From Antedon mediterranea (taxonomy: Eukaryota > Animalia > Echinodermata): DNA of 64,000 nucleotides. The translations under genes were made by a program, and so were the position numbers. Below, piece by piece: positions 1-64,000 of the stretch. The notes beneath the pieces are model-generated. The model ran no database searches. It had not been told where the DNA came from and saw nothing but the letters and a program-made list of their open reading frames with translations. How positions within the stretch are numbered: position 1 is the stretch's first letter; each line of letters starts with the position of its first letter. The stretch covers positions 3,697,888 through 3,761,887 of the forward strand of contig NC_092676.1 in the NCBI RefSeq assembly GCF_964355755.1. The letters run 5' to 3'.

Positions 1-330
1 AGATGGAAATGAGGTCTATATTAATCAGCCAATCAGAACGAACGAATTTGACGATTTGGATGGATATATAGAAAATGAGAATGAAATATACGTAGATGGA
101 AATGAGGTCAATATTAATCAGCAAAGCAGAGTGAACAAATTTGAAAATTTGGATGGATATATAGAAAATGAGAATGAAATATATGTAGATGGAAATAAGG
201 CTTATGTTAATCAGCCAATCAGAGAAAATGAATTTGAACATTTTGATTAATATATAGAAAATGAGAATGAAATATACATAGATGGAAATGAGGTCGATAT
301 ATTAATCAGCCAATCAGAGCGAACATTTTT
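1..330 (+). repeat. 3' end of a D-type Ig-receptor locus: 93-nt (31-aa) ENEIYVDG tail repeats, partial at window edge
   Basis: Units of YIENENEIYVDGNEVxINQxxRxNxFExL match the tail ORFs at 14042-14464 and 33670-33918; in-frame stop at 248-250. Confidence 0.8.
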
Positions 331-743
331 TAACATTTAACGTTTAATATTCAAAACTTTAAAAAGTTCCTTATTAAATTTACACGCTTACATTGGTTTT
401 ATTAATTACACAGTATGTCATGAAAACAATGCAATTGGTTAAAATGTTTACACTATGGGGTTACTACAAAATTTTATACACTAGCTACTGTATATCTATG
501 CCATACAAATATCGAAAATACAAGAAAAACAAAACTGTGTTATGGTTGATCGAGTTTGATTAGCTACCAGATAATGAGTAAAAACTACAGAGTTTTGAAT
601 GTAAATTGTAAAACTTTCGTTGTATGAGGAACAAGATGCATACTGTAGATGCTACAGTGTATTCTGCACATTCTACTATCGCTGGCTTCAACTACTTTTC
701 TCTACTCTACCTTTCTACATGATCAAACAACTTTGAAATCAAC

Positions 744-2372
744 ATGACTGGAGATTGTGATGTTTTCTTCCTGGTTGTATTGACTTTATTGTCTTCATCT
801 TCACTTGCTAATGTTGAGTTTGTTACTAAGCCACCATCAAATGTGACTGTCTATCCAGGTCAGAATGTTTCACTGCCTTGTGTTTTTGAGAATTTAATTC
901 TAAATCACCACATAGTAGAATGGAGTTATTGGCCAAGTTACGAGTATAAGGAGATTATTTCACATGACAGAAATATTTTGTTACCAAGTATTAATAACAT
1001 TGCTGAAAGTTACTCAATTCTAGGTGATGAAATGAATTTCACACTTTTTATCAAAATACCAAGTTCAATAGACTTTAAATCATCTTCTAGTATAAAAACT
1101 GATTATAGATGCTCTGTGTATGAGCTAATCAAAGATGTCCCTATTGAAATAGCAATTTCAACTGTCGTCATACCGAAATATACATTTCATTCTCCAGTGT
1201 GTGGAGCAATCATCAAAACTGTTGTCATGGGAGAAACATTATTATTAGGATGTTGGCCACCAGAGACAGATTATAATGTTACAACAATTTTAACTGTAAA
1301 CAAACAAGTTCTACCTACTACTTATTATAATGGGGGCATTGCTTACAACTTGACTGTAACAAAAGAGTACCATAATGCAGTGTTTGTATGTGAATCGAGA
1401 AGAAAAGAAACAAATGAGACCAGAAGTTGCTCTGTAGGCCCACTCACTGTCAACTACAAACCAGAGATTAACATCACACAGATATCACCACTGGAATACA
1501 TCTGTACTGCAGAGGCTAGACCACCTGTTGATACAACAGTCTGGATTGTGGAATCTAGTGTTCCAGAAGATCACTTTACTATTTCAAATAAGACTTTGAA
1601 ATTTATTAAATTGCCAAAAGTTGGTTCTGAAATAACATGTGAAGCAGGAAATCTTTTGGGAAAAGAATCCAAGTCAATGATCATTCCATTGTTGAACAAT
1701 AATGATGAAGAAAAAATCAAAATTTACATGATCATATTATGCGTTGTAATAACTATTAACATCATTGTTGCAATTGGCGTTTGCTACCTTAAATATAAAA
1801 AGAAACAAAATAATAACAATACTGATGATGACTATGATGATACCACTGAAAGGCAGGAGAGACAAGATGAAGATGAATATCAAATACCTGACAAAAGTAC
1901 CAGTCAACATTACCAATCATTAACATCAGAAACAATGGCTACTAAAAATGATACCACTTATGAAACTGCTTTCACAATTGACAAAGGTCAGAGTGCAAAG
2001 GTCATACAAGATACTTTACCATTCTTGACCTCTATTGATGTACAAAAGATAGAAACTGTATATGATACAACTTATGCTGAATGTGCTGTTAACAAAGAAG
2101 ATGGCACAAAATATGAAGTCATTCCTGATCAGAAGGTAGAAAAGACATCTGGTAAAGTTGATGTGAATAATCCACATGTAAGGAAACGACCTAAAGGACC
2201 TGAATGTGATGAACTTTATATTGAAATCATTGATGACAAAGAAGATATCACAAAACATGAAAGCTGTGAAAACACATCCACAACTAGTGCAGTTTATGTC
2301 AACAATCCATGTGTCAGGAAACAACAGCCTACAGGAACTATATGTGATGAACCTTTATATAGAAATCATTGA
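744..2372 (+). CDS. Single-ORF IgSF type I receptor G1 (SP-V-Ig-Ig-TM-A-type Tyr tail), 542 aa
   Basis: Signal peptide (FFLVVLTLLSSSSLA); V domain with LPC..EW..FTLFI..YRC; two more Cys-paired domains; TM IYMIILCVVITINIIVAIGVCY followed by a basic stretch; tail motifs YDD, YQI, YQSL, YET, YEVI, YVNN. A +1 insertion near 2352 shifts the last few codons. Confidence 0.9.
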   Translation: MTGDCDVFFLVVLTLLSSSSLANVEFVTKPPSNVTVYPGQNVSLPCVFENLILNHHIVEWSYWPSYEYKEIISHDRNILLPSINNIAESYSILGDEMNFTLFIKIPSSIDFKSSSSIKTDYRCSVYELIKDVPIEIAISTVVIPKYTFHSPVCGAIIKTVVMGETLLLGCWPPETDYNVTTILTVNKQVLPTTYYNGGIAYNLTVTKEYHNAVFVCESRRKETNETRSCSVGPLTVNYKPEINITQISPLEYICTAEARPPVDTTVWIVESSVPEDHFTISNKTLKFIKLPKVGSEITCEAGNLLGKESKSMIIPLLNNNDEEKIKIYMIILCVVITINIIVAIGVCYLKYKKKQNNNNTDDDYDDTTERQERQDEDEYQIPDKSTSQHYQSLTSETMATKNDTTYETAFTIDKGQSAKVIQDTLPFLTSIDVQKIETVYDTTYAECAVNKEDGTKYEVIPDQKVEKTSGKVDVNNPHVRKRPKGPECDELYIEIIDDKEDITKHESCENTSTTSAVYVNNPCVRKQQPTGTICDEPLYRNH

Positions 2373-4699: not shown

Positions 4700-5790
4700 A
4701 AATATTGCTACTGTATATTAGAAATAACTATTTCAGCCTACCATGGAGTAATATGATAATAGTTAGTATACCTCCATGCTATTAAAACTCTTCAGACAAT
4801 AATAATGGAATAGAATGGCAGAGGATGAAAAAAAAAACATATTGCAGAGTGCAAGAGTGTAATTTCACTTTTCCTGCTCCAGTGCACAAAGAAATGTTAA
4901 TGCTATGGTTTCTGAACCTGATCAGCTCTCAGCCAATGAGTGAACAGCAGAGTATTACCAATACCAAAAAAAAAACCACAGGTACTTTTATTACTCAAAA
5001 CCTATCACAATAATCTCATGGTTAACTGAGTCTGATCAACTCTCAGCCAATGAGTAAACAGCAGAGGATTATCAATACTAAAAGAATTTTTTGTGTGTGT
5101 GTGTGTGTTATTTTTCACTGTAAACTTGTTGCACATCTCATTGAGACTGTGCCTTTGATTTAAAAGAGATACAATAAAAGTTCAGTTCAGGTACGAACTT
5201 ATCACAATGACCTCATGGTTGACTGAACAACTCTCAGCCAATGAGTGAACAGCAGAAAATTATCAATGTATTAGTTATTACTTCCATTATTTGTTTTCAC
5301 TAGTAGTACTCAATATAGTATTTGTTGGTTTGAAATCAATTATTTCCTTAACTTTCTATACAACAACTTTAAACCACCTGTTTATGAAACAGTCTGGATT
5401 GTGAAAAACAACAATACTCTAAAGTATTAACATTCAGTGAACCATCTGAGGTTGATCACCTGACAAGTGTAACATGCAAAGGGCAAAATGTTATTGGGAC
5501 GGCAATAAAAACATTAAGTATTCAAAAGAAATGTTAATATGTTATAAATGTAAAGATGACAACATTGGAATGCTCTACTAATTGTAAACCTACAATCATT
5601 ATAACAACGTCAGAAAAAAACAAATTATAACTACTAATTATGACGGATTATACATTGGACACAATATTAATGTAACAAAAGGTAAACACAATGCAATGTT
5701 TATTTGTAGTTCAAAGAAGAACATTTCTAAAATTTGTATGACGATTCCAAATCGCAAGATAACGACAACCGTTCCTGTAACACGTAATCA
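4700..5790 (+). pseudogene. D-type receptor remnant: promoter modules plus degraded Ig domains 3-4
   Basis: 5373-5785 aligns by eye with 32921-33373 (ccacctgtt.atgaaacagtctggattgtg, acatgcaaagg.caaaatgttattggg, actaattatgacggattatacattgga) with deletions and stops. Confidence 0.75.
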
Positions 5791-6092
5791 AAATTATATT
5801 ATTTTATATATGCTCAATACTATTAAAAAAAAACCTTTATAAATTTTCTTTGAAAATATTTTTAATATCCTGTTCTATGTTGGGTGTAGTTTTGTATTAA
5901 TGTGTATAGAGCTACAGTATTCTACTGGCAGATGCTTTTACTTATATATCGAAGTTTTAATCTCAATTTGAAATTTAGTATTATTTAGAAAAGTATCTTG
6001 CAGTAAAACGTGTATAATATTCAAATTTTTTTTTAAAAAGTTCCTCGAAATTACACGTACATTGATTTTCCTATGATTCAGGTGAACAGTAT

Positions 6093-7496: not shown

Positions 7497-8309
7497 ATGA
7501 TCAACAACTTTGAAACCAACATGACTGAAGATTGTGATAATGTTTTCTTCCTGGTTGTATTGACTTTATTGTCTTCTTCTTCACTTGCTAATGTTGAGTT
7601 TGTTACTAAGCCACCATCAAATGTGACTGTCTATCGAGGTCAGAGTGTTTCACTGCCTTGTGTTTTTAGGAATTTAATTCCAAATCACCATATAGTAGAA
7701 TGGACTTATTGGCCAAGTTATGAGGAGAATGAGATTATTTCACATGACAGAAATATTTTGTTACCAAGTATTAATAACATTGCTGAAAGGTACTCAATTC
7801 TAGGTGAGGGAATGAATTTTACAATTGCTATCAAAATACCAAGATTAATAGATTTTAAATTATCTTCTAGTATAAGAACTCATTATATATGCTCTGTGTT
7901 AGAACCAAGCAAAGATGTCATAGTAACAGCAACCTCAACTGTTATTATAAAGAAACAACCATTTAGTACTCTAAACAAAGATGAGGAAAACAGTAATAAC
8001 ATTTCAATTATCATCGTTGTAGTTATTGTTGGTTTTGGTATGATTGTTGTCCTCATGATTCTCTGTTTTTCCAGAAAAAAGAAAAGTCAAATAGAAAATA
8101 AAAAAAAAATGAACAAAAATAGTTCTCAGCCAAATACATTAACAACCAACAAACTTGTTTACGATTATGTAGCAGTCACTGAAATCGAGTTAGAAGATTA
8201 TCAGGAAGTGGAGAATGAATTTTACGTTGGCGGTGATATTGTTATCAATGCAAAAAGTAAAACAGAATATGAAAATGTAAACCAATACAACTTAAAGGTC
8301 AGAGACTAA
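7497..8309 (+). CDS. Single-V-domain IgSF receptor G2 (SP-V-TM-shortened B-type tail); start may be 7521
   Basis: V domain followed directly by stalk and TM; tail YDYV, YQEV, YVG, YENV. The homologous rest of the B tail (to ~8677) is out of frame. Confidence 0.85.
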   Translation: MINNFETNMTEDCDNVFFLVVLTLLSSSSLANVEFVTKPPSNVTVYRGQSVSLPCVFRNLIPNHHIVEWTYWPSYEENEIISHDRNILLPSINNIAERYSILGEGMNFTIAIKIPRLIDFKLSSSIRTHYICSVLEPSKDVIVTATSTVIIKKQPFSTLNKDEENSNNISIIIVVVIVGFGMIVVLMILCFSRKKKSQIENKKKMNKNSSQPNTLTTNKLVYDYVAVTEIELEDYQEVENEFYVGGDIVINAKSKTEYENVNQYNLKVRD

Positions 8310-10398
8310 TTGATAATGTACTATATGATGAGCAAGCTACAAGTTTTAAAGAATACGCGGTGAATAGTGGAAGGAATGAAAAAGGACATTTATTCCAGAG
8401 CAAATAAAAGATATTAAGAACTAGAAGAGTATCAGGAAACAGAGAACAACTTATATGTTGGTGGCAATATTGTCAGCAATAGTGAAAGAAATAAAGACAA
8501 TATAAACAGGGTCAGGGACTGATTGACAATTATGATGAGCCAACTACAAGTCATAAAGAAAAGGCGATAAAAAATGGAAAACAAGGAGTAAATATTATTT
8601 ATTCCAAAGTAAATAAACAAGATTATAAAGAATGTGAAAATGAAATATATCAAGGTCCTGATAAATTGTCACAGTAAAATATCAATTAGCATAAGATGAG
8701 AAATAAATGTCATTGCAGAAAATTGTATGTATAGTTATTTAGTATAATGTAGACTTTTTTTACCTTTTAAACATTTTATACTTTGTGTTTTTAAATGTTC
8801 TGTAGGTACTGTACATATACTGCTTCTTCTTCGGGAGGTTTTTACAAATAAATAAAATTATTAGATAAATAATAACCGACTAATATCATTGCATTTTTCA
8901 TTGGTAAACAATATAATTTGTATTGTGTGTAACATTATGAATGGAACTAACCTTAATGTTATGCTATAGTGTATCCTCCTACACTCACTTGGGCAGTAGG
9001 CCAGGCTGAGGCCCAATGAAATTGGTGGTATATTATTGGTTTATAAATTGAAAATTACCATGGGCTTATCTCCAGGTTGGGCTTACACTTGAATCTAAAT
9101 GGTACTTATTACTAATATCTAATTTGTGCAACAAAATAATTGTGTAGAAAACACATTTTTCAGGATTTCTTCTCAGCGTTAACAACTTTACACCAAAATA
9201 ATAAAATATGAAGCTTCTTGATTGGACAGAATGTTGTATTGCAACAGTCATTAAACTTGCTATTGGCAGTTCTTGAAAAAAAAACCGTCTAAACAAATAA
9301 GAATAAATTATATTGTTTAACCAAAAAAAGATTTTCATTTCAAAAAAAGACAATTAAGTATATTTTTACAAAAACTAATTCAGTATTATTTCATTTGTAT
9401 GTATTATTATACAGCATTTAACAGTCACTTCTTTTGAATGTTTGTTTAGCACAAGCAAACTCATTCCTACACAAATAAAAACCAATAAGTTCACTGAACT
9501 AAATACCAGAATTAGAATTTCAAAACTAATATGATGTACTGACAACGAATTCCTTTTTAGTATGAAAACAAAACACTCTATTTTTGTCATATTTTTTTAT
9601 GTAATTATTACCGGAAAGGTAATAATTTTTATTGTGAAATGTTTTTTTTTAAATATACTATATATCTTGTAATCGTCAAAGATAGATTTTAAGTCATTTT
9701 TGCTTGTACTTGGCTATACAAAAGTTTAATAGAATGCTGATGTTCATAATATAACAACAAATTTTGAATATAAAACAAAGAATTGGGAGAAATTATTTTC
9801 CTTATTAAAACAGTGCATATTGCAAGAAAAAACTAAAAATATTACATTTTGTGGGGTGGTAATTGACAAATAATAATAATAAAAACTTACTTATACTCAT
9901 ATATATTCATATTAATATTTTCATTTAAACTTTAATAAAAGGATGAAATGTTTCAATTCTTATTTGGTCATAATTTTCATAATTATCAGAAAAAAACATA
10001 CTATTCTATGAACCCTGCATAGGTACAGATATAAAATGTCATGGTTGAATGGTTTAAACTCTCAACCAATCAGTGTAAAGTTTTAATATTGTTTTAACAA
10101 AGGAAGTACATATATATATATATATTCAAAATCATGCACTCTGGTACGTTATTGTAACACTATTATACAGTAAATACCATAGCACTTGTATAATACTTAA
10201 TAGGAATAACATCAGTTTCACATTCTGAAAAAGTTTCAGCTTAAAATTATTTAAGTATCCAGTACAAAGCCCTTAGGAGCCTGTTGGAAAGTTTTAGAAG
10301 AACATCACACCAGTATTTTGAGTCAGATACAGTGCATCAAGTTGTTTGAAAAGACTTCAATATCTGGTTTACAAGTTTTAATTTTCAACGAAAAAGTT

Positions 10399-12132
10399 AT
10401 GTATAAATACAGTGTTTGCTTCCTTGTGATGTGGATTGCATTGGTTTCTTCTTTTTGTGAGTTTGTTACTAAGCCACCATCAACAGTGACTGTCTATCCA
10501 GGTCAGAATGTTTCACTGCCTTGTGTTTTTGATAAATGTTTACATGAACATCAATACACAGTAGAATGGAGTTATTGGCCAGTCACGTTTGAATCTGCAG
10601 AGATTATTATTATTTCAAATGACAAAAATCTTTTGTTACCAAGTTTTGATCAAATTGCTGAAAGTTACTCAATTCAAGGTTATCGAACGAATTTCACACT
10701 TTTCATCAAAATACCAAGTTTAATTAATTTTAGATTTTCAAGTGTTAGCAGTCAGTATAGATGTTCTGTGTTTGACCCAAGAAACAGTGTCCCTGTTAAA
10801 ATAGCAACTTCAACTGTCATTATGCAGAAACCAACATTTCATTCTCCAGTGTGTAGAAAAATCAAGACAACTGTTGTCATTGGAGAAACATTATCATTAA
10901 GATGGATTTTACTCACCAATAACAGATTATGATGTAACAACAATTTTAACTGTGAACAAACAAGTTCTACCTACAATTATTGCTTACAACTTGACTGTGT
11001 AACAAAAGAGTACCATAATGCAGTGTTTGTATGTGAATCAAGAAGAAAAGAAACAAATGAGACAAGAAGTTGCTCTGTTGGCCCACTCACGGTCAACTAT
11101 AAACCAGAGATTAACATCACACAGATATCACCACTGGAATACATCTGTACTGCAGAGGCTAGACCACCTGTTGATACAACAGTCTGGATTGTGGAATCTA
11201 GTGTTCCAGAAGATCACTTTACTATTTCAAATAAGACTTTGAAATTTACTAAATTGCCAAAAGTTGGTTCTGAAATAACATGTGAAGCAGGCAATCTTTT
11301 GGGAGAAGATTCCAAGTCAATGATCATTCCATTGTTGAACAATAATGATGAAGAAAAAATAAGAATTTACATGATCATATTATGCATTGTTATAACTATT
11401 AACATCATTGTTGCAATTGGCGTTTGCTACCGTAAATATAAAAAGAAACAAAATAATAACATTACTGATGATGACTATGATGATACCACTGAAAGGCAGG
11501 AGAGACAAGATGAAGATGAATATCAAATACCTGACAAAAGTACCAGTCAACATTACCAATCATTAAAATTAGAAAAAGTTGCTACTAATAAAGATACTAC
11601 TTATGAAACTACTTTCACAATTGACAAAGGTCAGAGTGCAAGTGTCATGCCAGATATATACATGAGCTCTATTGATGGTGGACCAAAGATAGAAACTGTG
11701 TATGATACAGCTTATGCTGAATGTGCTGTTAACGAAAAAGATGGCACAAAATATGAAGTCATTCCTGATAAGAATGTAGAAAAGACATCGGGCGAAGTTT
11801 ATGTGAATAATCCACGTGAAAGGAAGCAACAACCTAAAGGACCTGAATGTAATGAACCACATATAGAAATTGTTGTTGACAAACAAGACATTTTTACAAA
11901 ACATGCTGATGTTGAAAACACATCCACACCTAGTGCAGTTTATGTGAATAATCCACATGTCAGGAAACAACAACCTAAAGGACCTGTATGTGATGAACCA
12001 CAAAAAGAAATTGTTGATGACAAACAAGACATCACAAAACATGTTGATGTTGAAAACACTTCCACATCCAGTTCTATTTATGTCAATAATCCGCATGTTA
12101 AAATACAGCCATCTACAAACATTCAGAAATAG
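10399..12132 (+). pseudogene. A-type IgSF receptor G3 with frameshifts in Ig domain 2
   Basis: MYKYSVCF signal peptide and V domain; indels at ~10905-11000 give a stop at 10932; the downstream ORF 11023-12132 encodes the rest, with three YVNNP motifs. Confidence 0.85.
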
Positions 12133-13722: not shown

Positions 13723-14464
13723 ATGATGCATTCTGGTAATATTTACCTACTGATTGTATTGACTTTATTATCTTTGTCTTCATCATATGATTCAAAGTTT
13801 GTTACTAGGCCATCATCAACATTAATTGTTTTTCAAGGTCAAATTCTTTCTCAATACTAATAATAACACTACTAATTTTGATTATTGTACAGAAGTAATC
13901 TGTTTTATTATTATTATAGTAATTGTCTGTTTATATACACAAAAACAAAGAAAGTTAAATCAAAAAATGAAACTACACTGTACAACCAAACCTTCACAAC
14001 AGGAAGACAAGGAGGAGGATTCAATGGTTTTAAACTAAGCAATGGGAAACATGGACAAGTATCAGGAAACAGAAAATGAAATATACGTAGATGGAAATGA
14101 GGTTGATATTAATCAGTCAATCAGAGCAAACGAATTTGAAGATTTGGATGGATATATAGAAAATGAGAATGAAATATACGTAGATGGAAATGAGGTTGAT
14201 ATTAATCAGCCAATCAGAACGAACGAATTTGAAGTTTTGAATGAATATATAGAAAATGAGAATGAAATATACATAGATGGAAATGAGGTTGATATTAATC
14301 AGCCAATCAGAGTGAACAAATTTGAAGATTTGAAAGGATATATAGAAAATGAGAATGAAATATATGTAGATGGAAATGAGGTCAATATTAATCAGCCAAT
14401 CAGAGTGAACAAATTTGAAGACTTGAATGAATATATAGAAAATGAAATATATCAAGTAACTTAA
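13723..14464 (+). pseudogene. D-type receptor remnant G4: signal peptide joined to TM/tail, Ig domains deleted
   Basis: MMHSGNIYLLIVLTLLSLSSSYDSKFVTRPSSTLIVFQGQ..* then an out-of-frame TM (IIIIVIVCLYTQK), DSMVLN-TAA and a 140-aa open repeat ORF. Confidence 0.75.
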
Positions 14465-16185: not shown

Positions 16186-16995
16186 ATGATCAACAACTTT
16201 GAAATCAACATGACTGGAGATTGTGATAATGTTTTCTTCCTGGTTGTATTGACTTTATTGTCTTCTTCTTCACTTGCTAATGTTGAGTTTGTTACTAAGC
16301 CACCATCAACAGTGACTGTCTATCCAGGTCAGAATGTTTCACTGCCTTGTGTTTTTAGGAATTTAACTCCAACTCACCACATAGTAGAATGGAGTTATTG
16401 GCCAAGTTATGACATCAAGTACAATATTTCAAAGGACAGAACTCTTTTGTTACCAAGTATTGATAATATTGCTGAAAGTTACTCAATTCTAGGTGATGGA
16501 ATGAATTTCACAATTGTTATCAAAATACCAAGTTTATTAGACTTTAAATTATCTTCTAGTATAAGAACTTATTATATATGCTCTGTGTTAGAACCAAGCA
16601 AAGGTGTCATAATAACAGCAACCTCAACTGTTATTATAAAGATACAACCATTTAGTACTCTAAACAAAGATGAGGAAAACAGTAATAACTTTTCAATTAT
16701 TACCGTTGTAGTTATTGTTGGATTTGGTATGATTGTTGTCCTCATGATTCTCTGTTTTTCCAGAAAAAAGAAAAGTCAAATAGAAAATGAAAAACAGAAA
16801 AAAAATAGTTCTCAGCAAAATACATTAACAACCAATAAACTTATTTACGATTACGCCACAGTCACTGAAATCGAGTTAGAAGATTATCAGGAAGTGGAGA
16901 ATGAATTTTACATTGGCGGTGATATTGTTATCAATGCAGAAAGTAAAACAGAATATGAAAATGTAAACCAATACAACTTAAAGGTCAGAGACTAA
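16186..16995 (+). CDS. Single-V-domain IgSF receptor G5, paralogue of G2; start may be 16210
   Basis: Same architecture and same tail truncation (YNLKVRD*) as G2. Confidence 0.85.
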   Translation: MINNFEINMTGDCDNVFFLVVLTLLSSSSLANVEFVTKPPSTVTVYPGQNVSLPCVFRNLTPTHHIVEWSYWPSYDIKYNISKDRTLLLPSIDNIAESYSILGDGMNFTIVIKIPSLLDFKLSSSIRTYYICSVLEPSKGVIITATSTVIIKIQPFSTLNKDEENSNNFSIITVVVIVGFGMIVVLMILCFSRKKKSQIENEKQKKNSSQQNTLTTNKLIYDYATVTEIELEDYQEVENEFYIGGDIVINAESKTEYENVNQYNLKVRD

Positions 16996-19096
16996 TTGAT
17001 AATGTACTATATGATGAGCAAGCTACAAGTTGTAAAGAATACGCGGTGAATAGTGGAAGGAATGAAAAAGGACATTTATTCCAGAGCAAATAAAAGATAT
17101 TATAAAGAACTAGAAGAGTATCAGGAAACAGAGAACAACTTATACGTTGGTGGCAATATTGTCAGCAATAGTGAAAGAAATAAAGACAATATAAACAGGG
17201 TCAGAGACTGATTGACAATTATGATGAGCCAACTACAAGTCATAAAGAAGAGGCGATAAAAAATGGAAAACAAGGAGTAAATATTATTTATTCCAAAGTA
17301 AATAAACAAGATTATAAAGAATGTGAAAATGAATGAAATATATCAAGGTCCTGATAAATTGTCACAGTAAAATATCAATTAGCATAAGATGAGAAATAAA
17401 TGTCATTGCAGAAAATTGTATGTATAGTTATTTAGTATAATGTAGACTTTTTTTACCTTTTGAACATTTTATACTTTGTATTTTTAAATGTTCTGTAGGT
17501 ACTGTACATATACTGCTTCTTCTTTGGGAGGTTTTTACAAATAAATAAAATTATTAGATAAATAATAAAAGACTAATATCATTGCATTTTCCATTGTTAA
17601 ACAAATATAGAATTATATTGTGTGTAACATTATGAATGGAACTAACCTTAATGTTATGCTATAGTGTATCCTCCTACACTCACTTGAGCAGTAGGCCAGG
17701 CCCAATGAAATTGGTGGTATATTATTGGTTTATAAATTGAAAATTACCATGGGCTTATCTCCAGGTTGGGCTTACACTTGAATCTAATTATTACTAATAT
17801 CTAATTTGTGCAACAAAATAATTGTGTAGAAAACACATTTTTCAGGATTTCTTCTCAGCGTTAACAACTTTACACCAAAATAATAAAATATGAAGCTTCT
17901 TGATTGGACAGAATGTTGTATTGCAACAGTCATTAAACTTGCTATTGGCAGTTCTTGAAAAAAAAACCGTCTAAACAAATAAGAATAAATTATATTGTTT
18001 AACCAAAAAAAGATTTTCATTTCAAGAAAAGACAATGAAGTATATTTTTACAAAACTAATTCAGTATTATTTCATTTGTATGTATTATTATACAGCATTT
18101 AACAGTCACTTCTTTTGAATGTTTGTTTAGCACAAGCAAACTCATTCCTACACAAATAAAAACCAATAAGTTCACTGAACTAAATACCAGAATTAGAATT
18201 TCAAAACTAATATGATGTACTGAGAACGAATTCCTTTTTAGTATGAAAACAAAACACTTGTTAATGTTATGTTTTTTTATGTAATTGTTACCGGAAAGGT
18301 AATAATTTTTATTGTGAAATGTTTTTTTTTAAATATACTATATATCTTGTAATCGTCAAAGATAGATTTTAAGTCATTTTTTCTTGTACTTGGCTATACA
18401 AAAGTTTAATAGAATGCTGATGTTCATAATAGATTTGAAGAATTGGGAGAAATTATTTTCCTTATTAAAGCAGTGCATATTGCAAGAAAAAACTAAAAAT
18501 ATAACATTTTGTGGGGTGGCAATTGACAAATAATAATAATAAAAACTTACTTATACTCATATATATATTCATATTAATATTTTCATTTAAACTTCAATAA
18601 TTTAAATTTAATTAATTTACCTAATTTAACTTTAATAAAAGGATGAAATGTTTCAATTCTTATTTGGTCATCATTTTCATAATTATCAGAAAAAAAACAT
18701 ACTATTCTATGAAACCTGCATAGGTACAGATATAAAATGTCATGGTTGAATGGTTTTAACTCTCAGCCAGTCAGTGTAAAGTTTTAATATTGTTTTAACA
18801 AAGGAAGTACATATATATATATATTCAAAATCATGCACTCTGGTACGTTATTGTAACACTATTATACAGTAAATACCATAGCACTTGTATAATACTTAAT
18901 AGGAATAACATCAGTTTCACATTCTGAAAAAGTTTCAGCTTAAAATTATTTAAGTATCCAGTACAAAGCCCTAGGAGCCTGTTGGAAAGTTTTAGAAGAA
19001 CATCACACCAGTATTTTGAGTCAGATACAGTGCATCAAGTTGTTTGAAAAGACTTCAATATCTGGTTTACAAGTTTTAATTTTCAACGAAAAAGTT

Positions 19097-21274
19097 ATGT
19101 ATAAATACAGTGTTTGCTTCCTTGTGATGTGGATTGCATTGGTTTCTTCTTTTTGTGAGTTTGTTACTATGCCACCATCAACAGTGAATGTATATCCAGG
19201 TCAGAATGAATGTTTCACTGCCTTGTGTTTTTGGTACCGGTAAATGTTTACATGAACATCAATACACAGTAAAATGGAGTTATTGGCCAGTCAAGTTTGA
19301 AGCTACAGAGATTATAACTATTTCAAATGACAAAAATCTTTTGTTACTAAGTTTTGATAACATTGCTGAAAGTTACTCAATTCAAGGTTATTTCAAGAAT
19401 TTCACACTTTTCATCAAAATACCAAGTTTAATTAATTTTAGATCTTCCAGTGTTAGCAGTCAGTATAGATGTTCTGTGTTTGAGCCAAATGGTAAAGGTG
19501 TCCCTGTTAAAACAGCAACTTCAACTGTCATTATACAGAAACCAAAATTTAGTAATCCAATTTGTGGAATAATCATCACTCTTGTTGTCATTGGACAAAC
19601 ATTATCATTAGAATGTTACTCACCAGTAAGAGACTATGATGTAACAACAATTTTAACTGTAAACAAACAAGTTCTACCTACTTATTATAATGGGGGCATT
19701 GCTTACAACTTGACTGTAACAAAAGAGTACCATAATGCAGTGTTTGTATGTGAATCGAGAAGAAAAGAAACAAATGAGACCAGAAGTTGCTCTGTTGGCC
19801 CACTCACTGTCAACTATAAACCAGAGATTAACATCACACAGATATCACCACTGGAATACATCTGTACTGCAGAGGCTAGACCACCTGTTGATACAACAGT
19901 CTGGATTGTGGAATCTAGTGTTCCAGAAGATCACTTTACTATTTCAAATAAGACTTTGAAATTTATTAAATTGCCAAAAGTTGGTTCTGAAATAACATGT
20001 GAAGCAGGAAATCTTTTGGGAAAAGAATCCAAGTCAATGATCATTCCATTGTTGAACAATAATGATGAAGACAAAATCAGAATTTACATGATCATATTAT
20101 GCATTGTTATAACTAATAACATCATTGTTGCAATTGGCGTTTGCTACCGTAAACATAAAAAGAAACAAAATAATAACATTACTGATGATGACTATGATGA
20201 TACCACTGTTCCTGAAAGGCAAGAAAGACAAGATGAAGATGAAAAATATCAAATAACTGACAAAAGCACCAGTCAACATTACCAATCATTAACATCAGAA
20301 AGATTGGCTACTAAATATGATACCACTTATGAAACTACTCTCACAATTGACAAAGGTCAGAGTGCAAGGGTTATGCCAGATGCTTTTCCATTCATGACCT
20401 CTATTGATGGTGGACAAAAGATAGAAACTGTATATGATACAGCTTATGCTGAATGTGCTGTTAACGAAAAAGATGACAAAAAATATGAAGTCATTCCTGA
20501 TCAGAATGTAGAAAAGACATCTGATGAAGTTTATGTGAATAATCCACATGTCAGGAAACAACAACCTAAAGGACCTGAATGTGATGAACCACAAATAGAA
20601 ATTGTTGTTGACAAACAAGACATCACAAAACATGCTGATGTTGAAAACACTTCCACATCCAGTTCTGTATATGTTAACAATCCACATGTCAGGAAACAAC
20701 AACCTAAAGGACCTGAATGTTATGAACCACAAATAGAAATTGTTGTTGACAAACAAGACATCACAAAACATGCTGATGTTGAAAACACTTCCACATCCAG
20801 TTCTGTATGTTAACAATCCACATGTCAGGAAACAACAACCTAAAGGTCCTGAATGTGATGAACCACAAATAAAAATTGTTGTTGACAAACAAGACATCAC
20901 AAAACATGCTGATGTTGAAAACACTTCCATATCCAGTTCTGTATATGTTAACAATCCACATGTCAGGAAACAACAACCTAAAGGACCTGAATGTAATGAA
21001 CCACAAATAGAAATTGTTGTTGACAAACAAGACATCACAAAACATGCTGATGTTGAAAACACTTCCACATCCAGTTCTGTTTATGTCAATAATCCACATG
21101 TCAGGAAGCAACAACCTAAAGGATCCTGTATGTGATGAACCACAAAAAGAAATTGTTGTTGACAAACAAGACATCACAAAACATGCTGATGTTGAAAATA
21201 CTTCCACATCCAGTTCTATTTATGTCAATAATCCGCATGTTAGGAAACAGCCATCTACAAACATTCAGAAATAG
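19097..21274 (+). pseudogene. A-type IgSF receptor G6 with a 4-nt duplication frameshift and expanded tail repeats
   Basis: cagaatgaatgttt at ~19203 (aatg duplicated) breaks the V domain start; further frameshifts at ~20807 and ~21123. Confidence 0.85.
20530..21250 (+). repeat. 138-nt (46-aa) coding tandem repeat, about 5 units plus a partial unit
   Basis: Unit VYVNNPHVRKQQPKGPECDEPQIEIVVDKQDITKHADVENTSTSSS; period 138 (aatccacatg at 20541 and 20679). Confidence 0.9.
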
Positions 21275-32139: not shown

Positions 32140-33666
32140 ATGACTGGATATTGTGATAATATTTACTTCTTGCTTGCACTGACTTTAGTAATGTTTTCAT
32201 CGTCACTTGCTGTTGAGTTCAATTCTAAGCCACCATCAACGGTATCTGTCTATCCAGGTCAGAATGTTTCACTGTCTTGTGTTTTTAGGAATTTAATTCC
32301 CAATCACCACATAGTAGAATGGAGTTATTGGTCAAGTTACGAGAATAACCAGATTATTTCAAATGACAGAAATATTTTGTTACCAAGTATTGATAACATT
32401 GCTAAAAGTTACTCAATTGTAGGTGATGGAATGAATTTCACACTTTTTATCAAAATACCAAGTATAACAGATTTTGGAATTTCTGGTGTACATACACAGT
32501 ATATATGTTCTGTGTTAGAACCAAGCAAGATCGGTTTCGTTGTCCCTGTTACAGCAACTTCAACTGTCATTATAAAGAAACATACATTTAATTCTCCAAT
32601 ATGTGGAGGAATACACAAAACTGTTGTCATTGGAGAAACATTATTATTCGGATGCTTCCCACCAGTGACAAACTATGATGTAACAACAACTTTAAAATTG
32701 AACAAACAAGTTTTACCTATTTATAATTGGTTAATCAATGCTTACATGTTGACTGTAACAAAAGAAGACCATGATGCAGTGTTTGTATGTGAATCAAGAA
32801 GAAAAGAAACAAATGAGACCAGAAGTTGCTCTGTTGGCCCACTCACTGTCAACTACAAACCAGAGATTAACATCACACAAATATCACCAATGGAATATCA
32901 CTGTACTACAGAGGCTAGACCACCTGTTAATGAAACAGTCTGGATTGTGGAAGAAAGCAATACCTTAAATTACAGTATTAACATTTCAAATAACGTATTA
33001 ACATTCAGTGAACCACCTGAAGTTGATCAGCTAACAAGTGTAACATGCAAAGGACAAAATGTTATTGGGACGGCAACAAAAACATTAAGTGTACAAAAGA
33101 AATGTCAATTTGTTGAACCGGATTGTAACTCTCAATATGTTATAAATGTAAATACGACAACATTGGAATGTACTACTGATTGTAAACCTGCAATTATCAT
33201 AACAACGCCAGAAATAAAACAAATTATAACTACTAATTATGACGGATTATACATTGGACACAATATTATTGTAACAAAAGGTGAACACAATGCAACGTTT
33301 ATTTGTAGTTCAAGGAAGAACATTTGTAACACGAGTCCAATACGTGAGATAACGACAACCGTTCTTGTAACACGCAGCAGCGCAGATATTGATCAATACA
33401 CGCAGTTTAGTATACAAGAACTAATAACCACTGTAAATAACATGTTAATCAAAAACGAGGATGAAAAACAAGATAATAATAGTAACTGGATGAATATAAT
33501 AATTTTGGTTATTGCAGTAAGTTTGGTATGCTGTTTTATCCTTATTCTTATAATACTTGTTTGTTTATATACACAAAATAAAAAGAAAGTTAAATCAAAA
33601 AATGAAACTACGACCAAACCTTCACAACAGGAAGACAAGAAGGAGGATTCAATGGTTTTAAACTAA
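32140..33666 (+). CDS. D-type IgSF receptor G7 (SP-V-Ig-Ig-Ig-stalk-TM-short tail), 508 aa
   Basis: The fourth domain (TLECTT..NIIVTKGEHNATFICSSRK) resembles domain 2; TM IIILVIAVSLVCCFILILIILVCL. Confidence 0.88.
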   Translation: MTGYCDNIYFLLALTLVMFSSSLAVEFNSKPPSTVSVYPGQNVSLSCVFRNLIPNHHIVEWSYWSSYENNQIISNDRNILLPSIDNIAKSYSIVGDGMNFTLFIKIPSITDFGISGVHTQYICSVLEPSKIGFVVPVTATSTVIIKKHTFNSPICGGIHKTVVIGETLLFGCFPPVTNYDVTTTLKLNKQVLPIYNWLINAYMLTVTKEDHDAVFVCESRRKETNETRSCSVGPLTVNYKPEINITQISPMEYHCTTEARPPVNETVWIVEESNTLNYSINISNNVLTFSEPPEVDQLTSVTCKGQNVIGTATKTLSVQKKCQFVEPDCNSQYVINVNTTTLECTTDCKPAIIITTPEIKQIITTNYDGLYIGHNIIVTKGEHNATFICSSRKNICNTSPIREITTTVLVTRSSADIDQYTQFSIQELITTVNNMLIKNEDEKQDNNSNWMNIIILVIAVSLVCCFILILIILVCLYTQNKKKVKSKNETTTKPSQQEDKKEDSMVLN

Positions 33667-33669
33667 GCA

Positions 33670-34436: not shown

Positions 34437-36170
34437 ATGACTGGAGATTGTGATAATGGTTTCTTCGTGGTTGTATTGACTTTATTGTCTTCATCTTCAC
34501 TTGCTAATGTTGAGTTTGTTACTAGGCCACCATCAACAGTGACTGTCTATCCAGGTCAGAATGTTTCACTGCCTTGTGTTTTTAGGAATTTAATTCAGAA
34601 TCAGCACAAAGTAGTATGGAGTTATTGGCCAAGTATGTTAAAGATTATTTCAATTGACAGAAATCTCTCATTAACAAGTATTGATAACATTGCTGAAAGT
34701 TACTCAATTCTAGGTGATGGAATGAATTTCACACTTTTTATCAAAATATCCAGAACAATAGATTTTGAATCATCTTCTAATATTAGAAATGATTTTAGAT
34801 GTTCTGTGTTTGAACTAAGCCAAACTTTCCCTTTTAAACTAACAAATCAAGGTGTCCCTGTTGACAGAGCACCTTCAACTGTTATTATACAACCAACATT
34901 TAGTTATCCAGTGTGTGTACAGATCAACACCACTGTTGTCGTTGGAGAAACATTATCATTAAGATGTTACTCACCAGTAACAGATTATGATGTAACAACA
35001 ATTTTAACATTGAACAAACAAGTTCTACCTACAATTTATTATAATGGGTTAATTACTTACAACTTGACTGTAACAAAAGAGTACCATAATGCAGTGTTTG
35101 TATGTGAATCAAGAAGAAAAGAAACAAATGAAACAAGAAACTGCTCTGTTGGCCCACTCACTGTCAACTACAAACCAGAGATTAACATCACACAGATATC
35201 ACCACTGGAATACATCTGTACAGCAGAGGCTAGACCACCAGTTAATGAAATTAACTGGAATGTGGAGCCAAAAATTGCTAGAAAACATTTCAATATTTCA
35301 AAAGATTCATTAACATTGACTAAAAAATTGAAAGCTGATGCTGTTATCAAATGTTGGGCAGAAAATACAGTTGGAAAAACCAAAGAAAAATTTATCATTT
35401 ATTCTAACTTTACTAGTCAGAATCAAGATACTCCAAATGAAAACAATGGTAACATGATAGCTATTATCATTATGGCCAGTTTTGCATTTTTGATGGTTAA
35501 TATTTTTGTTATTGTCCTCATGATTCTCTGTTTTTTCCGTCAAAAGCGATTCAAAAAAGAAAAGAAAAAGCAGAACAAAAATAGTTCTCAGCCAAATAAA
35601 TTAAAAAATAAAAAACATGTTTACGATTACGCCACAGTCACTGAAATCGACTTAGAAGATTATCAGGAAATGGAGAATGAATTGTACGTTGGCGGCGATC
35701 TTGTTATCAATACAGAAAGTAAAACAGAAAATGAAAATCTAAACCAATTTGAAGGTCAGAGACAGGAGATTGACAATTTACTGTATGATGAGCCAACTAC
35801 AAGCTGTAAAGAAGACGCGATGAATAGTGGAAGGAATGAAAAAGGAAACCAAGGAGGACATTTTTATTCCAAAGCAAATAACAAATATTATAAAGAACTA
35901 GAAGATTATCAGGAAACAGAGAACAAATTGTACGTTGGCAGCGATATTGTTAGCAAAAGTGAAAGAAGTAAAGACAATAGAGACCAATTTCAGGGTCAGA
36001 GACAGATTAACAATGTACTATATGATGATCAGCCAACTACAAGTCGTAAAGAAGAGGCGATGAATAATGGAAAACAAAGAGTAAATATTATTTATTCCAA
36101 AGTGAATAAACAAGATTATAAAGAATGTGAAAATGAAATATATCAAGGTTCTGATATATTGTCAAAGTAA
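34437..36170 (+). CDS. Intact B-type IgSF receptor G8 (SP-V-Ig-Ig-TM-long Tyr tail with ITIM-consensus IIYSKV), 577 aa
   Basis: Uninterrupted ORF; internally duplicated tail (EDYQE.EN.LYVG twice, LYD..EP/QPTTS twice); AATAAA at ~36197. Confidence 0.92.
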   Translation: MTGDCDNGFFVVVLTLLSSSSLANVEFVTRPPSTVTVYPGQNVSLPCVFRNLIQNQHKVVWSYWPSMLKIISIDRNLSLTSIDNIAESYSILGDGMNFTLFIKISRTIDFESSSNIRNDFRCSVFELSQTFPFKLTNQGVPVDRAPSTVIIQPTFSYPVCVQINTTVVVGETLSLRCYSPVTDYDVTTILTLNKQVLPTIYYNGLITYNLTVTKEYHNAVFVCESRRKETNETRNCSVGPLTVNYKPEINITQISPLEYICTAEARPPVNEINWNVEPKIARKHFNISKDSLTLTKKLKADAVIKCWAENTVGKTKEKFIIYSNFTSQNQDTPNENNGNMIAIIIMASFAFLMVNIFVIVLMILCFFRQKRFKKEKKKQNKNSSQPNKLKNKKHVYDYATVTEIDLEDYQEMENELYVGGDLVINTESKTENENLNQFEGQRQEIDNLLYDEPTTSCKEDAMNSGRNEKGNQGGHFYSKANNKYYKELEDYQETENKLYVGSDIVSKSERSKDNRDQFQGQRQINNVLYDDQPTTSRKEEAMNNGKQRVNIIYSKVNKQDYKECENEIYQGSDILSK

Positions 36171-38446: not shown

Positions 38447-40098
38447 ATGTATAAATACAGTGTTTGCTTCCTGGTGTTGTGGATTTCATTGGTTTCAAAG
38501 ATATTTTGTAATGTTGGGTTTGTTACTAGGCCACCATCAACAGTGACTGTCTATCCAGATCAGAATGTTTCACTGCCTTGTGTTTTTAATAATTTAATTA
38601 CAAATCACTACATAGTAGAATGGACTAGTTCGCAGGGTAACATAGAACATCCAGATATTATTTCAAATGACAGAAATATTTTGTTACCAAGTACTGATAA
38701 CATTACTGAAAGTTACTCAATTCTAGGTGATGGCATGAATTTCACACTTTTTATCAAAATACCAAGTTTAATAATAGATTTTGGATCAGCTTCTAGTATC
38801 AGCACTCTTTATGCATGTTCTGTGTTTGACGCAAAAGAGAAAGATGTCCCTGTTATAACATCAACTTCAATTGTCATTATACAACCGATATTTAGAGATC
38901 CAGTTTGTTTAAAAATCAACAATACTGTTGTCATTGGAGAAACATTATCATTAGGATGTTACTCATCAGAGACATATTATGAAGTTAAAACAATTTTAAA
39001 AGTGAACAAACAAGTTTTACATACTAATTATTATGTTGGGTCCTTCAATGTTTACAACTTGACAGTAACAAAGGAACACCATAATGCAGTGTTTGTATGT
39101 GAATCAAGAAGAAAAGAAACAAATGAGACCAGAAGTTGCTCTGTTGGCCCACTCACTGTCGGCCCACTCACTGTCAACTACAAACCAGAGATTAACATCA
39201 CACAAATATCACCACTAGCATTCCACTGTACTGCAGAGGCTAGACCACCTGTTAATGAAACAGTCTGGATTATAGAATCTAGTGTTCCAAAAGATCACTT
39301 TACTATTTTATATGGGATTTTGATATTTACTGAATTGCCAAAAGTTGTTTTTGAAATAACATGTGAAGCAGAAAATCTTGTGGGAGAAGATTCCAAGTCA
39401 ATGATCATTCCATTGTTGAAAAATAATTATGAAGAAAAAATAAGAATTTACTTGATCACATTATGCGTTGTTATAACTATTAACATCCTTTTTGCAATTG
39501 TACTTTGCTACCGTAAATATAAAAAGAAACAAAATAATAACATTACTGATGATGACTATGGTGATACCACTGAAAGGCAAGAAAGACAAAATGAAGATGA
39601 ATATCAAATACCTGACAAAAGTACCAGTCAACATTACCAATCATTAACATCAGAAACAATGACTGCCAATAATGATACCACTGAAAGGCAAGAAAGACAA
39701 GATGAAGATGAATATCAAATACCTGACAAAAGTACCAGTCAACATTACCAATCATTAAAATTAGAAAAAGTTGCTACTAATAACGATACTACTTATGAAC
39801 TACTTTCACAATTGACAAAGGTCAGAGTGCAAGGGTCATGCCAGATATATACATGAGCTCTATTGATGGTGGACAAAAGATAGAAACTGTGTATGATACA
39901 GCTTACGCTGAATGTGCTGTTAACAGAGAAGATGGCACAAAACATGAAGTAATTCCTGATCAGAATGAAGAAAACACAGCTGGCGAAGTTTATGTGAATA
40001 ATCCACGTGTCAGGAAACAACAAGGACCTGTGATGAACTTTATATTGAAATCATTGATGAAAAATAGGATGGCACAAAACAGAGTGAAGAATATCTAA
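38447..40098 (+). CDS. A-type IgSF receptor G9; ectodomain and TM intact, tail frameshifted (stop at 39856)
   Basis: MYKYSVCF leader; in-frame 15-nt duplication GPLTVGPLTV; duplicated DTTERQERQ..YQIPDKSTSQHYQSL; a single A is lost at ~39798 relative to G3. Confidence 0.8.
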
Positions 40099-41183
40099 AA
40101 TTTGAATAGAAAATAATTAAACTTTCAGAAACAGATTTGCTCTTTTTTGTATATAATGCTAATACTAATACTGTGTAATAGCTTTTTAATTTGCTCATTT
40201 TTATATAATAAAGTCTGTAATAGTTTTTTAAAATCACAATTGTTTAAAATAAATCATACTTTTGCTGTAATTTCCACACACATTAAATGAAAATATTAGA
40301 AATAAATTTAATACTAAAATATTAAGTCAGTGGAATATTAGTGCAGTATTGATGCTAGTATAAATGCTTTTGTAACATAATATACAAATATACTACTTGT
40401 ATAAAATGAAAAAAAGAAGATTAATTAAATCAGACATTGAATAGGAATTTTGTAGTTTTTACAAAGTTAATCACTTCCATAGAAGGGGGGACAATATATA
40501 TTTGAAGTGCATAAATTGCAAATAATTCTGTGTTCTGTTCTTTTTTATTACAATTTTGTAATAGAATTTAATATTAACAATTTTTCTTACAAAGTATTAT
40601 ATTGGATAGTCTTACAGCACACCTATTTCCGCATCATCATGTATTGTATCCTATACATTTACCATATATTCCAACCCTTCCTATTTAACAGGAAATCTTT
40701 AAAATTCAACCAAAAATGATCATGATTTTCTTATTTTTTTATAATATTCACCATTATATAGATTTCATAAACCAGTTTAGTTTTATTTCATAAAAATATT
40801 CTTAACAGTATTTCAAATACAGCATGGGATTTTGACATACAATAATTAAATTTATCAGAGTTTATATGATGTGTACTGCCACAGAATATGAAATAACATA
40901 CTAAAAAAAAAAAAAAAAAAAACTTTATATTTTGAAAATATTTTGCATTTGTTTGGTTTCTATCATTGTTTTGTAAAAAATAGACAATAAGTTTGTTTAC
41001 CTTTACAGAAAAACTTAACCCTAGAGTCTACACTAATATAATATAATAATATCCAGGATTTATATAGCACCTAATGTAATGAAACCTCTAAGCGCTGAAC
41101 ATTCAATCAATGACGTGCTCAGGATAAGACGTGTATAGCGAGCGCTCCTCATTTGACTACAATTTACACGGCGTGTATGCATC

Positions 41184-41873
41184 ATGGCCACCAAACCCAA
41201 GACTCGCTCTCGCCCAGCCGATATTGAAAGTGCTTGTTCCAACCCTGTGGACTTTAACAATTTTGTACATGCTTCCCTAAAATCATTATTAGATGGGCAG
41301 GCAAAAATTAAAGAGGATTTGAACCAAGCTATTGGATTTAACTCGGACAGAATCGCAGCACTCGAAGAAAACGATATTATCAAGGCTAACAAGATTGGTC
41401 AACTCGAACAAACGGTTGATAAACTATCATCTACGGTTGCGAAGCTCGAACTAGAGGCCAACAAATCCGAACGCTTCAGCCGACGTAACAACGTTCGAAT
41501 TGTGGGACTTAAAGAAGAATCAGGTGAGGATTGTATTGTCTTGGCCAGGAACATTCTAATAGATAACTTTGAATTTAGTGAAATACCAACGATAGAGCGT
41601 GCACATCGAGTCGGTCCTGTACTGCCGGTGAGGCCCCGACACATTATAATTAAACTACTTAGTTATAACTCTAAAGTTCAAGTCATGAAACAGAAGAATA
41701 TTGCCTTACAAGATAAACAGTTTTACGTGATAGATGATCTGACCTTAGTGGATTATAAAGAAAAGAAGAAATGGAAATTTCAAGTTAAAGCTTTATATGA
41801 CAATGGAACTAAACTTAAATTCTCTGCTGGTAAATGGCGAACTTCTACGGGGACTCCCTATATATTCAAGTAA
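41184..41873 (+). CDS. LINE ORF1 (coiled coil + RRM, L1/Tnp_22-like)
   Basis: Heptad region followed by SRRNNVRIVGLKE, IERAHRVG, PRHIIIKL and IDDLT motifs. Confidence 0.85.
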   Translation: MATKPKTRSRPADIESACSNPVDFNNFVHASLKSLLDGQAKIKEDLNQAIGFNSDRIAALEENDIIKANKIGQLEQTVDKLSSTVAKLELEANKSERFSRRNNVRIVGLKEESGEDCIVLARNILIDNFEFSEIPTIERAHRVGPVLPVRPRHIIIKLLSYNSKVQVMKQKNIALQDKQFYVIDDLTLVDYKEKKKWKFQVKALYDNGTKLKFSAGKWRTSTGTPYIFK

Positions 41874-42405
41874 CTTTTACGGTGTTTTGAGGAACTGGGA
41901 TATGAATAGTTTCTTTTTCTCTGCCTTCTTTCATTTTGTAATGTCAGTATATTTAACCTGGCTTTGCTTGTTTAAATTCCAAGCATGTCCGCTACGTACC
42001 ATTATGCAAATTATACCTTTGCATACCCGGTTGCATACCTAATGAATTATTCTCCGTTTTATACACGGGGAGTGCAACGCTTACGCTACCTATGTATTAG
42101 TAATACGGCAGCACTAAACAGAATTGTTTTATGTTTAATTATTGTTATATTTAGTTTTTTATTTTATTATATTATTGTTAACTTTTACCTAATGTTTAAA
42201 TTATCTATGATACCTATAAATAATGTGCCAATCCAACTCTACAACTGATGTGAAATTTAACCCTTTTGTGGCATACGAGAACATGAATATTAATGAAAAT
42301 GTTGATCCACACTCTCAATTTTATGCTAGTTAAAATGAATCTAATTATTTTGATCCAGAAACATTCTCAGAGAATTTCTCTAAGCATAACAATGATAAAA
42401 ATATT

Positions 42406-45255: not shown

Positions 45256-45578
45256 ATTAATTAACTAGTTATATTCTAGGTATCAGTTTTTTATTGTTTT
45301 CATATTCCGTTATGGTAATTACTTTATTCCTATATACCATTTACTATTATTTACTAATTTGATTTTAGTTACTTTTTGTTTTGTTCAGGCACTTTCAACA
45401 CAAGCTTTTGCTTTTTAGAAATTGTGCCTCCTTCATAATATTGTTTTATTCATGTTAAAGATGAGAAAAAAAAATTGTATTGTTTTAACTATCTTTCTTC
45501 TCGTCATGAATTTTGTATTATATTATTTATTTTGTATATTATGAAGGAAATAAATGTTACTATGAAATGAAATGAAAA

Positions 45579-63776: not shown

Positions 63777-64000
63777 GTTTGTAGGAAATTTTAAAAAGAT
63801 TATTAAGCAATAAAACCAATTTGAATTTGTGTTTTTTTTAGTAAATGCGCACCTTCTTTAATGGCCAAAATTTGTTCGTTTTCTTGTCTTTTGTCTTTGT
63901 CTCTATTCTCATATATTTTGGCAAATTGCCAAGGATAACCATAAGCAAATTCATTCACTATCCTTCTTAAAGGCGGAAATCCCGTTCACGAGACAAACAT

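What the first reader, a model, noticed from the sequence alone, without database searches (positions are those of the whole stretch)
744..2372. Multi-Ig receptors encoded without coding introns in an intron-rich genome
Seen: leader, all Ig domains, TM and tail are one continuous ORF in every intact member, while the neighbouring SCI1-like and kinesin genes have many short exons. Known: IgSF genes normally have one or two exons per domain. Inference: a retroposed founder (LINE machinery is abundant here), after which compact genes amplified, as described for intronless sea urchin TLRs.
Basis: partly seen in the sequence, partly recalled or inferred. Interest (0 to 1): 0.7.

Follow-up and report, generated by a model that had tools for sequence, protein, structure and literature searches.

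The report
Intron-free shuffling Ig receptors, feather star
This gene is one of 13 whole or broken copies in a tandem array, most likely from a feather star, of antibody-like surface-receptor genes whose coding sequence has no visible introns, a state likely inherited from an old echinoderm gene clan rather than freshly made, and the copies have swapped their outer tips and signalling tails, which makes them candidate, untested recognition receptors.

Summary
744-2372 is one 542-codon frame: signal peptide, V, four-cysteine C2, I-type Ig, TM and a 12-tyrosine tail. It is colinear with crinoid RefSeq models (at most 4 extra residues), while the neighbouring kinesin has six short exons. No RNA run was available, so unspliced transcripts are not shown. 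The window holds 13 copies or fragments; 7 have leader-to-tail frames.

The local-retrocopy story is weak. The family is shared with Anneissia and Antedon and belongs to the KirrelL-type three-Ig clan. KirrelL is already published as intronless in echinoderms, with retroposition proposed. One LINE here is younger than the array.

The better finding is mosaicism. The focal gene is a crossover chimera of two neighbouring copy types. V+C2 domains form a species-specific clade, while the tail types are shared across species (AU test rejects grouping by tail). V-domain dN/dS is about 1.15, with a few fast sites. This looks like a paired-receptor-style recognition array that reshuffles domains without exons. 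Function is untested.

The parts
744..2372 (+). Focal gene, 542 aa: chimera of a B-type 5' part and an A-type D3/TM/tail
744..812 (+). Signal-peptide-like leader (MTGDC type); boundary read by eye
813..1172 (+). D1, V-type Ig; candidate fast sites aa 68, 69, 74, 120, 135
1173..1457 (+). D2, four-cysteine C2-type Ig with the KirrelL-clan signature (P-x-C ... C ... F-x-C ... C-x-x-x-P)
1271..1295 (+). Mapped crossover interval between B-type and A-type sequence
   Evidence: an exact 334-nt contig 1036-1369 spans it
1341..1493 (+). Conserved block over the D2/D3 boundary (aa 200-250), dN/dS 0.25-0.38
1458..1697 (+). D3, short I-type Ig
1728..1796 (+). Transmembrane segment, no charged residue in the core (approximate ends)
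1797..2369 (+). Type-A cytoplasmic tail: 12 Tyr, one ITSM-like TKYEVI, YVNN, no ITIM or ITAM
1..338 (+). 93-bp-repeat tail of a C-type copy that begins before the window
5370..5830 (+). Broken C-type fragment (D3-D4)
7521..8677 (+). B-type copy, V-TM only; frame ends at 8309 after a tail frameshift
10399..12132 (+). A-type copy broken by +4 and +2 insertions in D2
13723..14464 (+). C-type copy with the ectodomain deleted, broken
16210..17370 (+). B-type copy, V-TM only; same tail frameshift as 7521, frame ends at 16995
19097..21270 (+). A-type copy broken by +4 in V; tail with 5.2 copies of a 138-bp repeat
32140..33666 (+). C-type copy, four Ig domains, 37-aa tail; an in-frame 93-bp repeat follows the stop
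34437..36170 (+). Intact B-type copy, 577 aa, one ITIM (IIYSKV)
38447..39856 (+). A-type copy, 469 aa, tail shortened by a frameshift
50497..52204 (+). B-type copy broken by a 17-nt deletion at the end of D3
54057..55553 (+). Intact copy, 498 aa: A-type upstream DNA, leader and D2, with a B-class tail (converse kind of mosaic)
41104..45575 (+). LINE with two long open frames, inserted into an A-gene flank after its duplication
61012..63778 (+). Comparison gene: kinesin-like, six short exons

Best explanation
The gene is one copy in a tandem array of single-frame V-C2-I Ig membrane proteins, most likely from a crinoid, that likely inherited its intron-free coding sequence from the old KirrelL-type clan and likely serves as a set of variable recognition receptors signalling through tyrosine-rich tails. 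Shown by sequence: the array is built of C-B-A triplets; the focal gene joins the 5' half of a B gene to the 3' half of an A gene; V+C2 domains are alike across copies (dS about 0.18-0.20) while D3 of different tail types is old (dS 0.62-0.90). Inferred: unequal crossover and gene conversion within the uninterrupted coding DNA swap sensing tips onto different tails in frame, doing without introns what exon shuffling does elsewhere. Predicted, untested: the V domain binds a variable ligand (microbe or other cell) on its GFCC' face, and phosphorylated tail tyrosines dock SH2 proteins. Whether the clan's founder was a retrocopy is unresolved.
For: Single frame and colinearity. Crinoid orthologues, with two Anneissia pairs each on one scaffold. 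Profile matches to KirrelL orthologues over all three domains: 98.0%, E 2e-13 and 98.6%, E 9e-16 (orthology judged by eye against the paper's supplement). Four positions (P, C, C, C) of D2 are invariant in 39 aligned rows. 86 of 150 best profile hits carry the D2 pattern. Little room for introns in two relatives: 2129 aa on a 6690-bp contig (Saccoglossus P0005) and 311 aa on 1112 bp (Anneissia P0154). Chimera: 70 of 103 informative sites are B-like left of 1271-1295 and 142 of 146 are A-like right of it; 0 of 2000 permutations reach this; the flanks agree. Tail A is shared with P0004 (score 118, shuffle maximum 59) and tail B with Anneissia/Antedon (106-168, maxima 65-72). Yet the V+C2 tree puts all 6 window copies in one clade (100/99), and AU rejects grouping by tail (p 2e-78 and 4e-49). 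V dN/dS 1.15; M2a beats M1a (2dlnL 27, about 10% of sites at omega 5.7). Many broken copies, as in birth-and-death immune families.
Against: No expression, ligand or signalling data. The whole-domain V omega is not different from 1 (lnL difference 0.07), which relaxed selection would also give. Site tests are inflated by the recombination shown here, used my own script on 8 sequences including one broken copy, and depend on loop alignment. Canonical motifs are scarce: 1 ITIM, 1 ITSM and 1 ITAM-like match among 6 window tails, so an activating/inhibitory pairing is not shown. Deep branches of the 73-row tree are unresolved and the careful search did not finish; the family does not group specifically with KirrelL. 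P0005 and P0154 are partial NCBI models, and the species of P0004 is unknown. Gene structure of the other clan members was not seen. The conserved D2/D3 block has ordinary dS (0.18), so it reflects purifying selection rather than a special recombination hub, and the mapped crossover lies just upstream of it.
Confidence: 0.55

Rival explanations
1. One reading: a lineage-restricted retrocopy of an intron-containing Ig gene in this genome, made by local LINEs, founded the array.
For: Single-frame genes beside multi-exon genes; a LINE with long open ORF1-like and ORF2 frames lies in the array.
Against: Orthologues in other crinoids; a published intronless clan member; the LINE postdates the duplication; the only A-run of 10 or more lies at one homologous site 0.8-1 kb past the stop in 2 of 10 copies; no closer parent-like protein among the 150 listed profile hits.
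Confidence: 0.1
2. Ancient retroposition (or cDNA-mediated intron loss) of a nectin/CADM- or Kirre-like three-Ig gene near the base of Ambulacraria produced the whole intronless clan. This is compatible with the best explanation and concerns origin only.
For: Proposed for kirrelL in PMC8903837. Best folds are nectin/Necl for the full ectodomain and Rst/SYG-1/DIP for V+C2 (Z 13.4, tied within 1); that these families have introns is recalled. Hemichordate relative with at most 303 bp of room for introns.
Against: No parent identified; retro-hallmarks would not survive this long; stepwise intron loss gives the same end state.
Confidence: 0.5
3. The proteins are adhesion or cell-fusion molecules like KirrelL; the array is an unstable duplication drifting under relaxed selection, with no recognition role.
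For: Clan membership; V omega near 1; 6 of 13 loci broken, fragmentary or cut by the window edge, and 4 more with shortened tails.
Against: Tail lineages kept across species, strong constraint at the D2/D3 block, a fast site class in V; KirrelL orthologues are far more conserved (72% between two KirrelL-like proteins).
Confidence: 0.3
4. The array and the chimera are assembly artefacts (merged haplotypes or misjoins).
For: 7314-12098 and 16006-20825 are 92.8% alike.
Against: An exact 334-nt short-read contig spans the crossover (possibly the same sample as the assembly); most frameshifts seen are 2-4-nt duplications, some shared between copies.
Confidence: 0.05

Closest known systems
Echinoderm KirrelL and its PMC Ig relatives Kirrel2L, Hypp1164, IgTM (PMC8903837)
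   Same: Leader, V, four-cysteine C2, I, TM layout; profile match over all three domains; kirrelL is single-exon.
   Different: KirrelL is a conserved skeletogenic fusion gene. These are fast-evolving tandem copies with unrelated repeat-rich tails, mosaicism and many broken copies; not KirrelL orthologues.
Anneissia LOC117108902, LOC117108957, LOC117115572, LOC117115573 and Antedon XP_071955963 (all 'uncharacterized')
   Same: Same family: about 47-49% identity and the type-B tail.
   Different: Only 4 and 1 models were found there; exon structure not seen; no function described.
Hydractinia Alr family (bioRxiv 2022.03.04.482883)
   Same: Clustered V/I-set Ig receptors, pseudogenes, domain-level mosaicism, tyrosine motifs in tails.
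   Different: Alr genes have one exon per domain and shuffle exons. No homology was tested and allorecognition is not shown here.
Vertebrate paired receptors (Siglec, SIRP, CD300; recalled, no call)
   Same: Ectodomains homogenised over divergent tails.
   Different: No charged TM residue, no clear ITIM versus ITAM pairing, and no introns here.
Nectin/Necl and Kirre/Neph/SYG-1 structures
   Same: Best structural neighbours.
   Different: Only 14-19% identity; this is fold likeness, not membership.

Membership tests
KirrelL-type three-Ig clan (working group defined here) | Leader + V + C2 + I + TM order | tested here: met
KirrelL-type three-Ig clan (working group defined here) | Four-cysteine D2 with P-x-C start and C-x-x-x-P end | tested here: met
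   6 of 6 window frames tested; invariant columns
KirrelL-type three-Ig clan (working group defined here) | Coding sequence without introns | tested here: inconclusive
   Met at DNA level; no transcript data
KirrelL orthologue | Groups with KirrelL and shares its tail | tested here: not met
   Separate crinoid clade; the KirrelL tail in P0108/P0158 is unlike these by eye
Retrogene (recent) | Poly(A) relic and target-site duplication | tested here: not met
   No A-tract behind a polyadenylation signal; target-site duplications not searched systematically
Retrogene (recent) | Intron-containing parent in the same genome | not testable with these tools
   No genome held
Paired immune receptors | Homogenised ectodomains on older, divergent tails | tested here: met
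Paired immune receptors | Inhibitory (ITIM) versus activating (ITAM or charged TM) members | tested here: inconclusive
   1 ITIM, 1 ITSM, 1 ITAM-like match in 6 tails; no charged TM core
Paired immune receptors | Immune-cell expression and shared ligand | not testable with these tools
   No RNA holder listed
Nectin/Necl or Kirre/Neph | Orthology by sequence | tested here: inconclusive
   Fold matches only, at 14-19% identity; PDB sequence hits weak, E 4e-6 or higher

The most novel reading that the evidence does not exclude
Crinoids have turned an intronless KirrelL-type adhesion gene into a germline-shuffled, paired-receptor-like Ig recognition locus (immune or allorecognition). In it, crossovers inside continuous coding DNA recombine positively selected V domains with ancient signalling tails: an exon-free counterpart of Alr or Siglec/SIRP clusters in the earliest-branching living echinoderm class.
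Probability: 0.35. Interest if true: 0.72.

Novelty: new variant of a known kind. Interest (0 to 1): 0.45.

Why it matters
Intronless multi-Ig genes in echinoderms are already known (kirrelL), so the headline is less surprising than first thought. What adds value is an apparently undescribed crinoid family that shows tip-and-tail shuffling, concerted evolution and fast V-domain sites without exons. If it is expressed in immune or epithelial cells, it gives a concrete, easily amplified single-exon locus for testing variable Ig-based recognition in echinoderms. It would also link a developmental adhesion clan to immune-type diversification.

Tried and rejected
No RNA holder listed. Run X1, guessed as RNA, covers all 30 bins of a stretch including introns and repeats and shows no listed splice-like joints, so it was treated as DNA (most joint rows were not displayed). 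The metagenome contig scan found no relative among 79 pattern hits. The ESM Atlas gave only generic Ig clusters at 0.90-0.92. Foldseek on V+C2 gave mostly Fab chains, which is uninformative. The idea that the D2/D3 block is a specially homogenised hub was rejected because its dS equals that of V. IQ-TREE mixture codon models crashed and were replaced by my own M1a/M2a script. No complex prediction was obtained, so there is no verdict on V-V dimerisation. The primary KirrelL paper (Ettensohn and Dey 2017) is not held. Look-ups of earlier scan notes by place, words and sequence were empty.

Full report
Observation. The frame 744-2372 encodes 542 aa without a stop, far beyond chance. It reads as leader, three Ig domains, a transmembrane segment and a 195-residue tail with 12 tyrosines. 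Pfam support is weak (V-set E 0.002), but AlphaFold gives three contiguous beta-sandwiches (pLDDT 81; V+C2 95). The kinesin at 61012-63778 reads as six exons of 70-139 nt, so the contrast with neighbours is real. A retained in-frame intron is unlikely: leader-to-TM has at most 4 extra residues against three Anneissia RefSeq models, and the largest insertion among 7 other copies is 27 nt. The tail is less tightly tested; it is open and aligns to the tail of P0004 over about 100 residues. No transcript evidence could be had.

The array. TBLASTN and self-BLAST show 13 copies or fragments on the plus strand between 1 and 55553. They fall into repeated triplets: a C gene (four Ig, 93-bp-repeat tail), a B gene (MTGDC leader, tail ending CENEIYQG) and an A gene (MYKY leader, tail with YDDTT and a roughly 138-bp repeat). 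Seven loci have leader, Ig, TM and some tail in one frame; three are frameshifted before the TM; two are fragments; one begins before the window. Two B copies are V-TM only, the deletion ending at a short similar sequence, so domain number changes without exon boundaries.

Source and relatives. The best hits are uncharacterised proteins of the crinoids Anneissia japonica and Antedon mediterranea at about 47-49% identity, plus one unnamed ENA protein. The window is therefore most likely from another crinoid. A profile search gave 203 hits, of which 150 were listed. I looked up names for 20 of the top hits: after the orthologues come crinoid 'kin of IRRE-like' and 'cell adhesion molecule-like' three-Ig proteins and hemichordate 'hemicentin-1-like' repeats; one was a fish protein. 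86 of the 150 share a four-cysteine D2 pattern. The published KirrelL sequences show the same layout (supplement of PMC8903837, part 1 of 2, sequences cut at 400 letters). P0108 and P0158 are KirrelL orthologues by eye against that file and by their mutual hits, and both match the family profile over all three domains. In a 73-row quick tree the window copies form a clade (95) inside a crinoid clade (97) with Anneissia LOC117112755 as sister (98); deeper nodes are unresolved.

Origin of the intron-free state. PMC8903837 (passages and section 10 read) states that kirrelL lacks introns in all echinoderms examined and raises retroposition. Two further relatives leave little room for introns: 6387 coding bases on a 6690-bp contig and 933 on 1112 bp (both partial models). 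The simplest reading is inheritance from an old intronless clan. Local LINEs do not bear on it: the element at about 41104-45575 splits a flank that is intact at 3553. No poly(A) relic was found. A founding retroposition remains about even odds and could not be tested.

Mosaic evolution. The focal gene has B-type upstream DNA and leader (96-97% to B copies, 58% to A copies), but D3 is 98-100% and the TM and proximal tail 93-96% identical to A copies 10399 and 19097. The switch maps to 1271-1295, the downstream flank is A-type, and an exact short-read contig spans the switch (possibly the assembly's own sample). Part of the left side (about aa 107-170) is only 64-85% like any copy in the window, so its donor is not here. 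Copy 54057 is the converse kind of mosaic, with a weaker signal (103 of 143 sites, then 37 of 103). Across six copies dS is 0.18-0.20 in V and D2 but 0.62-0.90 in D3 between tail types. Tail A is shared with P0004 and tail B with Anneissia and Antedon, whereas V+C2 groups by species and AU tests reject grouping by tail. This is concerted evolution of the distal ectodomain over older tail lineages.

Selection and function. Omega is 1.15 in V, 1.08 in the first part of D2, 0.38 at the D2/D3 block and 0.64 in the rest of D3. A site model favours about 10% of V codons at omega 5.7, at aa 68, 69, 74, 120 and 135. On the model these fall on the C', F and G strands, the face that nectin- and Kirre-type domains use for binding (recalled). 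Recombination inflates such tests, and omega near 1 also fits relaxed selection. The tails are tyrosine-rich but have few canonical motifs. I put a recognition-receptor role at about 0.55 and drifting adhesion genes at about 0.3.

Comparison and novelty. It works like Hydractinia Alr (passages read; there each domain is one exon) and like vertebrate paired receptors (recalled), but membership of neither is shown. Sea urchin TLRs are mostly single-exon (PMC3367398, passages). Ten literature searches (listings and abstract starts only) showed no description of this crinoid family. The library lacks most subscription papers, including the primary KirrelL paper, and supplements of crinoid genome papers were not seen. 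Two unchecked notes from this scan describe other intronless Ig-type receptor genes in sea urchins, suggesting the pattern recurs in echinoderms. Verdict: real; a new variant of a known kind; interest 0.45.

Noticed in passing
window 33664-33901, 14037-14464 and 1-338: Two C-type copies share a TAA 37 codons after the TM, yet the in-frame 93-bp (31-aa, two-Tyr) repeat behind it stays open with no indels (140 codons at 14042-14464). A recently lost tail or stop read-through; unexplained.
   Followed up: partly
window 27475-31059: DIRS-like element on the minus strand (reverse transcriptase, integrase SAM-like domain, 183-bp inverted ends 96% alike) nested in a LINE at about 24350-31330.
   Followed up: partly
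window 41104-45575: LINE with a 229-aa ORF1-like frame, a 935-aa endonuclease/RT frame and an ATGAA-repeat 3' end; precise insertion into an A-gene flank.
   Followed up: yes
window 46807-48094: 62-bp tandem repeat, about 20 units.
   Followed up: no
window 570-590, 4925-5250, 7345-7360, 13440-13545: A recurring CAGCCAATGAGT motif (CCAAT-box-like) upstream of B and C copies, about 170 nt before the ATG in B copies; in some copies a pyrimidine tract plus AG just before the ATG could be a 5' UTR acceptor.
   Followed up: no
window 1036-1248: The contig covering the focal gene's distinctive segment has about twice the depth of nearby single-copy contigs in three runs of one sample, hinting at a second copy outside the window; depth is not a reliable copy number.
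   Followed up: partly
P0005 (Saccoglossus 'hemicentin-1-like'): About ten near-identical C2+I units on a 6690-bp contig: a giant, nearly intron-free multi-Ig protein of the same clan that is probably misnamed.
   Followed up: partly
   Followed up: partly
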